Part shown: positions 19,152 to 21,108 of the stretch, piece by piece
How the letters are laid out: every line of letters begins with the position of its first letter
Position numbering within the stretch: position 1 is the stretch's first letter
The notes under the pieces: generated by a model
Told to the model about the DNA's origin: nothing
Databases searched by the model: none
Seen by the model: only the letters and a program-made list of their open reading frames with translations
DNA from: Escherichia phage EC1-UPM
Sequence record: NC_041906.1
DNA: 64,000 nt
Direction: 5' to 3' (one strand)
Program-made: the position numbers and the translations under genes

Positions 19152-19649
19152 ATGAAACATAGAATTGCCCATGACAGGCTTTTACAGCTTGTATATTACG
19201 ACCCTATTTCCGGGATTTTTACTCGTAGGAATACTGGAAAGGTATCCGGTTATCTAATGAAGAGTGGCTACATTCAACTCCGTGTGGATAGCGTGTTGTA
19301 CTATGGGCATATTCTTGCATGGTTCTATGTACATGGCGTATGGCCTACAGATAGGATTGACCATAAGGACAATATTCGCCATCACAACTGGATAGATAAC
19401 CTCAGAGAAGCAACCCACATGCAGAATAACCAGAGTGCTGTTCTATCTAAAGCGAACACATCTGGTTTCAAGGGAGTATCCTTTTCAAAGAAATTAGGTA
19501 AATACAGAGCAACTATTTGGGTTAATAGCAAACCGATCTCATTAGGTTTCACGGATAACCCAAGAGAAGCTGCTCTTCTTTATGATGAGGCTGCTGTAAT
19601 TCATTATGGTGAATTTGCCAAAACCAATAAACAATTAGGTCTGCTATGA
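19152..19649 (+). mobile_element. HNH homing endonuclease with AP2 DNA-binding domain
   Basis: HNH-type motif IDHKDNIRHHNWIDNLREATHMQN followed by AP2-like FKGVSFSKKLGKYRATIW...LLYDEAAVIHYGEFA; free-standing small ORF in the replication module. Confidence 0.7.
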
Positions 19650-20623
19650 AACTTACTAACAATCACGACGTTAGTCTCGCACTTGCCGTATGGCTTGTAA
19701 CAGATGATTATGATTACGTAGACAATCCTAAGTATCTGTCTGTTACTACATTGCTTAAGCCCATTAAGCAAATCGTCATGAAGCATCGTGTAGACCTCAG
19801 TGACCAGTCTATTGATGTTATGGATTTCGTCTCTACATCAATGGGTACTGGCTTACATGATTCTATCGAGAAAGCCTGGAAGCTGGGGCATAAGACTGCA
19901 TTGAAGAAGCTAGGATATCCTCAGCGTGTAATTGATGCAGTAGTCATTAACCCAACCAAAGCAGACTTTGATGCTAACCCTGACCTTATCCCTATCTACA
20001 TTGAGCAACGTGGAACCAGGGTGGTTAAGGGTTGGACTATCGGTGGTAAGTTCGACATCGTAACAGAAGGTCTGTTGCAGGACTTTAAGTCTACCTCAAC
20101 CTATTCCTGGGTTGCTGGTTCCCGTGATGATGAACACAAGATGCAAGGTAGCTTGTATCGTTGGATTCACAACGACATCATTACTGAGGATGTAATTCGT
20201 ATTAACTACATCTTCACTGACTTCATGAAACACATGGCTAATAGCAATCCGAACTATCCTGCTAATCGTATTATGCATAAGGATATTCCGTTGCTATCTG
20301 TCGAGAAGACTGAACGTTGGGTGGAAGAGAAGATTCACCTCATTGAGAAGTACTGGAATGCACCTGAAGAGGAAATTCCTGAATGTACTGACGAGGAGTT
20401 GTGGCGAACAGAGCCACAGTTCAAATACTTCTCTGATGCTTCTAAGGTAGATGTACCTGGAGCCAGAAGTACCAAAAACTTTGACGATATGGCATCTGCC
20501 CGTATCTTCATGGCTGAAAAAGGTGGCAAGGGTGCTATCAAGGTCGTGGAGGGGCAGGTTAAGCGTTGTCTGTATTGCCCTGTCGCGTCCATTTGTGAAC
20601 AGAGGAAACGATATTACCCATGA
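19646..20623 (+). CDS. conserved hypothetical protein (flanked by homing endonuclease genes)
   Basis: 325-aa ORF with overlapping start and stop codons. Confidence 0.45.
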   Translation: MKLTNNHDVSLALAVWLVTDDYDYVDNPKYLSVTTLLKPIKQIVMKHRVDLSDQSIDVMDFVSTSMGTGLHDSIEKAWKLGHKTALKKLGYPQRVIDAVVINPTKADFDANPDLIPIYIEQRGTRVVKGWTIGGKFDIVTEGLLQDFKSTSTYSWVAGSRDDEHKMQGSLYRWIHNDIITEDVIRINYIFTDFMKHMANSNPNYPANRIMHKDIPLLSVEKTERWVEEKIHLIEKYWNAPEEEIPECTDEELWRTEPQFKYFSDASKVDVPGARSTKNFDDMASARIFMAEKGGKGAIKVVEGQVKRCLYCPVASICEQRKRYYP

Positions 20624-21108
20624 AATTAATACCAATCGAGGTGTACCAACAAGCAGCTCTTGAGTTGTCTTACGACCCAGCCTCCCGTAGTTGTATACGG
20701 AAAAATGGTAAGGAAGTTGGAACCCTCGATGGTAGTGGTTACTGGTTAGTACGAGTAGGTAAGGGCAAAGGGACCTTACTAAAATGCCACCGAGTAGTAT
20801 GGTTCTTACATCATGGAACCATGCCACCCCTCATAGAACACAAAGACAGAAATCCGTCGAATAACCTTATTACTAATTTAAGGGAAGCGACTGAATCGCA
20901 GAACAGATGTAATACATCTAAGCATTGTGATAATACGTCTGGTGCTAAAGGTGTTTTCTGGTGCAAGTCCACCTCTAAGTGGATGGTTAAAGTCTGCGTT
21001 AACTATAAAACTTATTGGGGAGGCCGACACGCCGACCTGGAAACTGCAATCGCAGTAGCAACCGAATTACGAAATAAACTTCACGGAGAGTATGTAAACC
21101 ATGATTGA
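20620..21108 (+). mobile_element. HNH homing endonuclease with AP2 DNA-binding domain (paralog of 19152-19649)
   Basis: IEHKDRNPSNNLITNLREATESQN HNH-type motif plus AP2-like AKGVFWCKSTSKWMVKV...; same architecture as 19152-19649. Confidence 0.7.

What the first reader, a model, noticed from the sequence alone, without database searches (positions are those of the whole stretch)
19152..21108. Two paralogous HNH-AP2 homing endonuclease genes bracketing a replication-module gene
ORFs 19152-19649 and 20620-21108 share an HNH catalytic motif plus an AP2 DNA-binding domain and flank the 325-aa gene 19646-20623, between the DNA polymerase and primase-like genes. Free-standing homing endonucleases are mobile and mark recent insertion; paired insertion around one gene suggests the middle gene or its flanks carry the target sites.
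Basis: partly seen in the sequence, partly recalled or inferred. Interest (0 to 1): 0.45.

Follow-up and report, generated by a model that had tools for sequence, protein, structure and literature searches.

The report
Two mobile endonuclease genes flank exonuclease
An N4-like coliphage (genus Gamaleyavirus) carries two selfish "homing" endonuclease genes, each gained separately, at the two ends of its replication exonuclease gene; this is an ordinary kind of phage parasite, but the junctions are clean enough to predict where one of them cuts.

Summary
ORFs 19152-19649 (HEG-1) and 20620-21108 (HEG-2) both encode an I-HmuI-like HNH nuclease followed by an AP2 DNA-binding domain, with catalytic residues intact. 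They flank the N4 gp42-type exonuclease gene, between gp41 and the gp43 primase.

The window is a G7C-like Gamaleyavirus. Close relatives carry neither gene, HEG-1 only, HEG-2 only, or a third HNH-AP2 gene at the HEG-2 site. No E. coli phage record examined carries both.

Each cassette is a foreign patch in a PE007/PW8/nithesis-like backbone. HEG-1 matches the phage 24-32N allele. HEG-2, with about 25 bp upstream and 80 bp downstream, matches PGN829.1. So the two genes were gained independently by gene conversion.

HEG-1 lies inside gp42. A relic of gp42 codons 1-19 (19083-19145) precedes it and a recoded duplicate restarts gp42 after it. A distant relative (L047) has the same layout. All HEG-1-positive lineages have lost His19 of gp42, which predicts a target near codons 17-22.

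Both genes are under purifying selection. Burkholderia N4-like phages HN05 and HN01 show the same pairing.

Verdict: real, already annotated in relatives, a new member of a known kind. Cleavage was not tested.

The parts
18607..19083 (+). gp41 homologue (158 aa), the upstream neighbour. Its C-terminal half (about 18802-19083) is hypervariable among Gamaleyaviruses.
   Evidence: phrog_9919; this stretch is 97-99% identical to PW8, Bp4 and PE007 but only 48-78% to all other relatives. Presence of HEG-1 is uncoupled from the gp41 type.
19083..19145 (+). Relic of the native gp42 5' end (codons 1-19 plus Gly and a stop; MKITNNHDVSLALAVWLLHG*). It keeps gp42's native TAATG overlap with the gp41 stop codon and ends 6 nt before the HEG-1 ATG. 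Proposed roles: left homology arm and translational-coupling leader.
   Evidence: The relic is nearly identical to the gp42 5' end of endonuclease-free phages (PE007, nithesis). The same relic occurs in PW8, G7C and 24-32N, and in the distant locus L047.
19152..19649 (+). HEG-1, a 165-aa HNH (I-HmuI-like) plus AP2 endonuclease; orthologue of G7C gp41.1.
   Evidence: It is 92.7-96.4% identical at protein level to the eight distinct E. coli phages (11 records) that carry it. dN/dS is 0.07-0.11. The window's allele is 24-32N-like.
19646..19702 (+). Recoded duplicate of gp42 codons 1-19, which restarts the exonuclease gene after HEG-1 (MKLTNNHDVSLALAVWLVT). It carries L18V and H19T; E21D lies just downstream, in codon 21 (about 19706-19708).
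   Evidence: local alignment to the relic. It is absent from all endonuclease-free alleles.
19646..20623 (+). gp42-type PD-(D/E)XK exonuclease (325 aa), the bracketed gene. Its body is backbone-like and was not imported with either endonuclease gene.
   Evidence: PDDEXK_1, weak; phrog_2139, E=3e-151; 94-100% identical to nithesis and PE007 across the body.
20596..20619 (+). Co-converted last ~25 nt of gp42 (TGTGAACAGAGGAAACGATATTACCC), shared only with HEG-2-positive phages.
   Evidence: The left crossover lies between about 20570 and 20596.
20620..21108 (+). HEG-2, a 162-aa HNH plus AP2 endonuclease. Its 3' end supplies a GGAGAG Shine-Dalgarno-like motif for gp43.
   Evidence: It is 98% identical to PGN829.1, 96% to U1G, and the protein is 100% identical on Logan contig L099. 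dN/dS is 0.06-0.08. The clade with L026 and Burkholderia HN05 has 100% bootstrap support.
21101..21180 (+). Co-converted first ~80 nt of the primase gene (the MIDLTG... form, lacking Ser2).
   Evidence: Positions 21102-21201 are 90-94% identical to PGN829.1 and U1G but 71-81% to all others. From 21202 on the window is 100% identical to PW8, nithesis and pSb-1.
21101..23251 (+). gp43-type DNA primase (716 aa), the downstream neighbour.
   Evidence: PriCT_1; phrog_2135.

Best explanation
The window is a G7C-like Gamaleyavirus (Schitoviridae). It carries two free-standing, site-specific HNH-AP2 homing endonuclease genes that entered independently at the two ends of the gp42 exonuclease gene.

Proposed mechanism (inferred, by analogy with I-HmuI and the T4 Seg/Mob enzymes): in a mixed infection, the endonuclease nicks or cuts the endonuclease-free allele. 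Repair copies the gene, plus a short flank, from the carrier genome.

HEG-1 is predicted to target gp42 around codons 17-22 (...TGGCTATTACAT GAC GAG TA...). Its cassette lies within the first ~20 codons of gp42 and carries a recoded replacement for them, with His19 changed to Thr and Glu21 to Asp. This keeps the exonuclease intact and should make the carrier allele uncuttable. The displaced native 5' end survives upstream as a 20-codon relic. I propose that the relic serves as the left homology arm, because upstream gp41 is too divergent to do so, and that it delivers ribosomes to the HEG-1 start by termination-reinitiation.

HEG-2 sits exactly in the gp42-stop/gp43-start overlap and brings about 25 bp of gp42 and 80 bp of gp43 with it. 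Its target is probably in that junction.

Shown: domain architecture, intact motifs, presence/absence polymorphism, breakpoints, the relic and its duplicate, purifying selection. Inferred: cleavage, target positions, immunity, translational coupling.
For: Domains and motifs.

Presence/absence at both sites among phages that are 90-95% identical overall. No record has both genes (best coverage of the 5-kb query is 90%).

Mosaic structure:
- The HEG-1 cassette is 96-99% identical to 24-32N, while the adjacent gp41 is 98-99% identical to PW8/Bp4/PE007 and only 50-61% to 24-32N.
- The HEG-2 patch (about 20596-21180) matches PGN829.1 and U1G, then identity switches to 100% with PW8 and nithesis.

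Synonymous divergence: HEG-2 has lower dS than the gp42 body in comparisons with PGN829.1 (0.13 against 0.33) and L026 (0.78 against 1.45). HEG-2 DNA is 99.2% identical to L099 on a ~95% backbone. dN/dS is 0.06-0.11.

Relic and recoded duplicate. The same architecture, with the insertion point within 3 nt, occurs in L047, whose exonuclease is only 52% identical.

His19 association: none of 5 distinct HEG-1-positive gp42 N-termini keeps His19, against 34 of 54 HEG-1-negative ones (Fisher p=0.011). Three sister pairs agree: Gamaleyavirus, L046/L047 and HN03/HN05.

Site specificity across the family: in 80 diverse gp42 loci, every HNH-AP2 hit within 2.5 kb abuts the gp42 start (3 loci) or stop (9 loci). 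The same pairing occurs in Burkholderia phages HN05 and HN01.
Against: No cleavage, nicking or homing assay exists for any of these proteins, as far as the searched literature shows.

AP2 falls below Pfam's curated cut-off in both single sequences.

HEG-1 alleles are more diverged at synonymous sites (dS 0.36-0.44) than the neighbouring gp42 (0.21-0.23). HEG-1 therefore looks like an old polymorphism rather than a fresh invasion.

The His19 association rests on only four independent lineages. His19 is also absent from 20 of 54 endonuclease-free N-termini.

Site-1 endonucleases do not form a supported clade in the neighbour-joining tree.

Burkholderia phages and As2 have no relic, so the relic is not obligatory.

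I-HmuI-type HNH enzymes are nickases (from my own knowledge), so a clean double-strand break should not be assumed.
Confidence: 0.8

Rival explanations
1. The two endonuclease genes act together as a 'HEG-island' (Barth, Dunham and Seed 2023). In that model the pair mobilises the bracketed exonuclease gene as cargo, and the arrangement moves as a unit.
For: The pairing recurs in Burkholderia phages HN05 and HN01. The concept is published for other phages (PMC10448857, section 22).
Against: The two cassettes have different nearest donors, 24-32N-like and PGN829.1-like. The gp42 body between them is backbone-like.

The two sites assort freely. Observed combinations are site 1 alone, site 2 alone (two different lineages), site 1 with either site-2 lineage, and none.

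Given carriage in about 11 and 4 of the 97 records that match the 5-kb region, fewer than one double carrier is expected by chance.
Confidence: 0.08
2. The proteins are domesticated or accessory nucleases that benefit the phage. Possible roles are exclusion of co-infecting relatives or help with replication and recombination. On this view they are kept by selection on the phage rather than by selfish homing.
For: Purifying selection is strong, with dN/dS 0.06-0.11, similar to gp42. The HEG-2 lineage is held at the same junction from E. coli phages to Burkholderia phages. The genes are embedded in the replication operon with overlapping start and stop codons.
Against: Near-identical phages lack one or both genes, so they are dispensable. 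U1G carries a frameshifted HEG-2. Purifying selection is also expected for an actively homing element. Marker exclusion and homing are not mutually exclusive.
Confidence: 0.1
3. One or both genes are no longer active nucleases. They would then be relics of past invasions, or AP2-type DNA-binding regulators.
For: HEG-1 alleles are old, with dS higher than their flanks. AP2 domains have been co-opted as transcription factors elsewhere, as cited in PMC10448857.
Against: All HNH motif residues are invariant across 10 homologues. The reading frames are intact and dN/dS is about 0.1. HEG-2 shows signs of recent lateral spread.
Confidence: 0.05

Closest known systems
G7C gp41.1 and its orthologues (ECBP1, Bp4, PW8, 24-32N...) for HEG-1; PGN829.1 (unannotated ORF) and U1G gp54 for HEG-2
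   Same: Same genes at the same sites. Protein identity is 92.7-96.4% for HEG-1 and 96-98% for HEG-2. They are already annotated as 'putative HNH homing endonuclease'.
   Different: No record examined combines both genes. None of the annotations I saw notes the gp42 relic and its duplicate. None of these proteins has been characterised biochemically, as far as I could find.
I-HmuI (phage SPO1, PDB 1U3E), an HNH_3 homing endonuclease
   Same: The N-terminal nuclease domain aligns with it, including the HR..., DH.D, N..NLR and QN motif residues.
   Different: I-HmuI is encoded in a group I intron, has a different C-terminal DNA-binding module, and nicks one strand (from my own knowledge). The genes here are free-standing (no Rfam intron) and use an AP2 domain.
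HNH-AP2 homing endonuclease family (Magnani, Sjolander and Hake 2004, as cited in PMC10448857) and the IPA-HNH genes of vibriophage ICP1
   Same: N-terminal HNH followed by a C-terminal AP2 domain, in a phage, next to essential genes.
   Different: The ICP1 genes are too divergent for Pfam HNH_3, whereas these two score above its cut-off. The Magnani paper itself could not be read here.
T4 free-standing Seg/Mob endonucleases (SegG co-conversion, MobE)
   Same: Intronless homing, insertion between or in essential genes, co-conversion of flanking markers, and sporadic distribution among relatives. The references are listed in PMC10448857 and PMC2790892.
   Different: A different nuclease and DNA-binding combination, in a different phage family. 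Here the co-conversion tracts are very short (about 25-80 bp).
'HEG-islands' (Barth, Dunham and Seed 2023)
   Same: An essential replication gene is bracketed by two endonuclease genes, and the endonuclease at a given site is interchangeable (two different lineages occupy site 2).
   Different: The cargo gene does not travel with the endonuclease genes, and the two cassettes have separate histories.
Endonuclease-associated partial gene duplications in fungal mitochondria (C-terminal atp6 and cob duplicates)
   Same: A mobile endonuclease sits between a gene and a duplicated terminal fragment of that gene (PMC6279837).
   Different: Those are 3'-end duplications in mitochondria with GIY-YIG or LAGLIDADG genes. 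Here a 5' end is duplicated in a phage, and the relic copy keeps the native translation start.

Membership tests
HNH_3 / I-HmuI-like nuclease | beta-beta-alpha-metal HNH motif with the catalytic His and the Asn residues | tested here: met
   Pfam HNH_3 scores 35 and 43 bits against a cut-off of 24.8. The profile hits I-HmuI at E=9e-8. H53, H71, N79, N83 and N92 are invariant. In HEG-2 the residue before the catalytic His is Glu rather than Asp.
HNH-AP2 homing endonuclease family | C-terminal AP2/ERF-type DNA-binding domain | tested here: met
   Single sequences fall below the Pfam cut-off (23 and 24 bits against 33.3). The 10-sequence profile hits the WRI1 AP2 domain at E=8e-8, TEM1 at 1.7e-4 and ERF096 at 9e-3. 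No structure was predicted.
Free-standing homing endonuclease gene | Sporadic presence or absence at one locus among close relatives | tested here: met
   Alleles with none, site 1 only, site 2 only (two lineages) and both all exist.
Free-standing homing endonuclease gene | Not inside an intron or intein | tested here: met
   gp42 and gp43 are continuous ORFs. There is no Rfam family at 15000-24000.
Free-standing homing endonuclease gene | Co-conversion of flanking sequence, so that the history of the cassette conflicts with that of the backbone | tested here: met
   Sharp identity switches at about 19083-19140, 19703, 20570-20596 and 21180-21200. HEG-2 dS is lower than the flank dS.
Free-standing homing endonuclease gene | Site-specific cleavage or nicking of the endonuclease-free allele | not testable with these tools
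   This needs purified protein and substrates from PE007 or nithesis.
Free-standing homing endonuclease gene | Carrier allele protected by changes in its target site | tested here: inconclusive
   All HEG-1-positive lineages lack gp42 His19 (0 of 5 against 34 of 54, p=0.011). This is comparative evidence only. No comparable signal could be isolated for HEG-2.
HEG-island (cooperative bracketing pair) | The bracketed cargo is co-inherited with the flanking endonuclease genes at unusually high identity | tested here: not met
   The gp42 body is backbone-like and the two cassettes have different donors.

The most novel reading that the evidence does not exclude
The HEG-1 element may be a composite mobile unit, conserved across distant Schitoviridae. 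It would consist of an endonuclease gene plus a recoded, cleavage-resistant replacement for the first ~20 codons of its target gene.

On this reading it inserts inside the coding sequence between codons 21 and 22. The displaced native 5' end remains as a relic that serves both as the only usable left homology arm (upstream gp41 being hypervariable) and as a leader ORF that couples translation to the endonuclease gene.

This would be a way to invade a coding sequence without an intron or intein, and a phage counterpart of the 3'-end duplications seen in fungal mitochondria. The HEG-2 lineage may in parallel have tracked the gp42/gp43 junction since before E. coli and Burkholderia N4-like phages diverged.
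Probability: 0.45. Interest if true: 0.5.

Novelty: new member of a known kind. Interest (0 to 1): 0.35.

Why it matters
For genome annotation this is routine: both genes are already labelled as putative homing endonucleases in relatives.

The value lies in how clean the natural experiment is. All the allele states are available among phages about 93% identical: empty, site 1 only, site 2 only, an alternative gene at site 2, and both. Breakpoints resolve to tens of bases. A target for HEG-1 can be predicted to within about 20 bp, together with specific predicted resistance substitutions (His19Thr/Ser/Phe).

That makes an uncharacterised HNH-AP2 endonuclease directly testable. It also offers a compact system for studying how free-standing endonuclease genes enter a coding sequence without splitting the gene, and how they drive mosaicism in therapeutic-type N4-like coliphages.

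Tried and rejected
- Single-sequence PDB searches were weak. HEG-1 hit only WRI1 at E=0.029. A profile of 10 homologues was needed.
- A sigma-70 promoter and terminator scan of 18200-21400 found nothing above shuffled expectation. N4-type promoters are not covered by that tool.
- An Rfam scan of 15000-24000 found no intron or other RNA family.
- The exact-sequence look-up for HEG-1 found no record.
- For HEG-2 it found one 6.5-kb Logan contig. I first suspected that contig was a second double carrier, but it lacks HEG-1.
- I considered that three endonuclease lineages each co-diverge with the phage family, because endonuclease and exonuclease identities match (50-54% against 51%). The neighbour-joining bootstrap tree supports this only for the HEG-2 lineage (100%). 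Site-1 genes are unresolved, and the window's HEG-1 groups weakly (37%) with the PhAPEC5-type site-2 gene.
- In that tree some ORFs from metagenomic loci were over-extended at the N-terminus, which may distort deep nodes.
- I looked for a relic upstream of the site-1 gene in As2 and Burkholderia HN05 and found none.
- I rejected the HEG-island (unit mobilisation) reading for this window; see the rival explanations.
- The Magnani 2004 paper is not held in the library.
- I did not run structure prediction or the large protein-database searches, because the profile evidence was sufficient.
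Full report
**What is there**

The two ORFs exist as described: 19152-19649 (165 aa, here HEG-1) and 20620-21108 (162 aa, HEG-2). Both lie on the + strand and bracket 19646-20623 (325 aa), with overlapping start and stop codons.

Both score above Pfam's curated cut-off for HNH_3. Both also give sub-threshold AP2 hits. A profile of 10 homologues hits I-HmuI (1U3E, E=9e-8) with its N-terminal half and plant AP2 domains with its C-terminal half: WRI1 at E=8e-8, then TEM1 and ERF096. The two-domain architecture is therefore real.

The HNH residues are invariant across the alignment and align with the I-HmuI motif. The two proteins are 42% identical over 115 aa. They are the only such genes in the window.

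The bracketed gene is the N4 gp42-type PD-(D/E)XK exonuclease. gp40 and gp41 lie upstream, after the family A polymerase, and the gp43 primase lies downstream. No intron-like RNA family is present.

**Whose genome it is, and the allele series**

The region is 90-95% identical to G7C-like Gamaleyaviruses (Schitoviridae). No record covers more than 90% of a 5-kb query spanning both genes. Annotated relatives give a complete series:

| State | Phages |
|---|---|
| Neither gene | nithesis, St11Ph5, PE007, pSb-1 |
| HEG-1 only (92.7-96.4% aa) | G7C gp41.1, PW8, 24-32N, Bp4, Mimir124, ECBP1, PD38, Uz-1 |
| HEG-2 only | PGN829.1 (98%), U1G (96%, with a 1-nt deletion that truncates it) |
| A different HNH-AP2 gene at the HEG-2 site (34% to HEG-2, 50% to HEG-1) | PhAPEC5, ZQ2, PBM-2/3, UE-M6, Moo19 |

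A Logan metagenome contig (L099) encodes a HEG-2 protein identical to the window's, but lacks HEG-1.

**Junction anatomy at site 1**

In endonuclease-free phages gp42 starts ATGAAGATAACC...GTATGGCTATTACATGACGAGTATGATTAC. In the window, the first 57 nt of that sequence survive at 19083-19139, still overlapping the gp41 stop codon (TAATG). They form a 20-codon mini-ORF (MKITNNHDVSLALAVWLLHG*) that ends 6 nt before the HEG-1 ATG.

After HEG-1, gp42 restarts at 19646 with a recoded copy of the same codons (ATGAAACTTACTAAC...GTATGGCTTGTAACAGATGAT). This copy encodes L18V, H19T and E21D, and then rejoins the common sequence at about 19703. The insert is about 563 bp and lies inside the coding sequence. 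In G7C and PW8 the relic runs to gp42 nt 65.

**Junction anatomy at site 2**

HEG-2 lies exactly in the gp42-stop/gp43-start overlap. Its own stop overlaps a gp43 start that lacks the Ser2 codon of endonuclease-free alleles. A GGAGAG motif inside its 3' end precedes the gp43 ATG.

**Evidence of movement**

Sliding identity and site-by-site comparison show that the window's backbone is PE007/PW8/nithesis-like.

The HEG-1 cassette is 24-32N-like (96-99%). The adjacent gp41 C-terminal half is 98-99% identical to PW8, Bp4 and PE007, and only 50-61% to 24-32N. The left crossover therefore lies within the relic.

The HEG-2 patch runs from about 20596 to 21180 and is PGN829.1/U1G-like. Positions 21102-21201 are 71-81% identical to every HEG-2-negative phage. 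From 21202 the window is 100% identical to PW8, nithesis and pSb-1.

The two cassettes thus have different donors. The gp42 body between them belongs to the backbone.

Synonymous divergence agrees with this. HEG-2 is younger than its flanks: dS to PGN829.1 is 0.13 against 0.33 for the gp42 body, and to L026 it is 0.78 against 1.45. HEG-2 DNA is 99.2% identical to L099 on a ~95% backbone. HEG-1 alleles are older than their flanks (0.36-0.44 against 0.21-0.23).

Both genes have dN/dS of 0.06-0.11, close to the 0.03-0.08 of gp42. The proteins are therefore maintained by selection.

HEG-1 occurs with at least three gp41 C-terminal types, and two of those types also occur without it. This implies repeated crossovers in the ~60-70 conserved bases formed by the relic and the end of gp41.

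**Beyond the genus**

Burkholderia N4-like phage HN05 has the same pairing. Its site-1 gene is 50% identical to HEG-1, its exonuclease is 51% identical, and its site-2 gene is 54% identical to HEG-2. HN03 has site 2 only. HN01 pairs the site-1 gene with the other site-2 lineage.

I surveyed 80 diverse gp42 loci from IMG/VR. Every HNH-AP2 hit within 2.5 kb abuts either the gp42 start (3 loci) or the gp42 stop (9 loci), and none of the 80 has both.

Locus L047, whose exonuclease is only 52% identical to the window's, has the same relic-endonuclease-recoded-duplicate layout. Its relic is identical to its endonuclease-free sister L046 up to ...CTGCACGACGA. The relic's stop overlaps the endonuclease ATG (ATGA). 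The insertion point agrees with the Gamaleyavirus one to within 3 nt.

All site-1-positive lineages have replaced gp42 His19, whereas their sisters keep it. The replacements are Thr in Gamaleyavirus and As2, Ser in L047 and Phe in HN05/HN01. Counting distinct N-termini, 0 of 5 positive ones keep His19 against 34 of 54 negative ones (p=0.011).

This is the basis for predicting that HEG-1 recognises or cuts around gp42 codons 17-22. It is an inference, not a measurement.

A neighbour-joining tree supports the HEG-2 lineage as a clade spanning E. coli and Burkholderia phages (100% bootstrap). It does not resolve the site-1 genes.

**Mechanism and rivals**

The best-supported reading (confidence about 0.8) is two independently acquired free-standing homing endonuclease genes that spread by break- or nick-induced gene conversion with very short co-conversion tracts.

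The 'HEG-island' idea of cooperative bracketing (PMC10448857) is the closest published framing of such pairs. Here, however, the cargo gene does not travel with the endonuclease genes, and the sites assort freely. At the observed carriage rates, about 11 and 4 of 97 records, a double carrier is simply rare by chance.

A beneficial or exclusion role cannot be excluded, and it is compatible with homing. Loss of nuclease activity is unlikely given the intact motifs and low dN/dS.

**Comparison with what is known**

HNH-AP2 homing endonucleases are an established family (cited in PMC10448857). G7C gp41.1 and its relatives are already annotated as putative members. A preprint on G7C-like phages notes that variable loci often involve homing endonucleases (10.1101/542787).

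Partial terminal gene duplications next to endonuclease genes are known in fungal mitochondria (PMC6279837). I found no description of the 5'-end relic arrangement in phages, but my literature search was limited.

**Verdict**

It is a new member, and a new combination, of a known kind. The junction structure gives an unusually precise and testable target prediction. Interest 0.35.

Noticed in passing
window 18802-19083 (gp41 C-terminal half); L010, L015, L017, L099: The C-terminal half of gp41, directly upstream of the predicted HEG-1 target, exists in at least four types that are only 48-78% identical to each other. It is largely deleted in pSb-1, ZQ2, Moo19 and the Logan contig. This would fit repeated break repair next to a cut site.
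   Followed up: partly
L006 (U1G) 4001-4438: The U1G copy of HEG-2 has a 1-nt deletion near its 3' end that truncates the protein to 145 aa. It looks like a decaying copy, as the homing-cycle model expects.
   Followed up: partly
window 15726-18305; L004 787-1317; L005 and L006 644-1300: Relatives PhAPEC5, PGN829.1 and U1G have their DNA polymerase gene interrupted by a further HNH endonuclease gene, annotated as intron-encoded in PhAPEC5. The window's polymerase is a single intact 859-aa ORF.
   Followed up: no
L001 (PW8) 6837-7529, compared with window 23308-24060: PW8 has a shortened Sak4-like gp44 (336 bp) followed by another HNH endonuclease gene. U1G also has gp44 in pieces. The window's gp44 is intact (250 aa). 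This may be another insertion hot spot in the same replication module.
   Followed up: no
L095 (IMGVR_UViG_3300046692_000072) gp42 codons 17-21: This locus has no endonuclease gene, but its gp42 reads WLVSDDYDY, the pattern seen only in HEG-1-positive alleles. It may be a footprint of precise endonuclease loss, or a naturally resistant allele.
   Followed up: no
L026-L028 (IMG/VR contigs): These Moovirus-like contigs carry HEG-2 at 91% protein identity, while their exonuclease is only 83% identical to the window's. HEG-2 dS is 0.78 against 1.45 for the gp42 body. This suggests transfer of HEG-2 between genera.
   Followed up: partly
L010 (pSb-1) 2867-3739; L012 (Bp4) polymerase and primase: The pSb-1 exonuclease has a 1-nt insertion that truncates it. 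The Bp4 polymerase and primase are annotated in pieces. These could be sequencing errors or real disruptions of 'essential' genes; I did not examine them.
   Followed up: no
L004, L015, L017 gp43 codons 7-9: Phages carrying the alternative (PhAPEC5-type) site-2 endonuclease share Gly-Ile-Ser at gp43 residues 7-9 in two genera. Endonuclease-free alleles have Gly-Val-Thr or Gly-Val-Val there. This is a candidate resistance signature for that third endonuclease.
   Followed up: no
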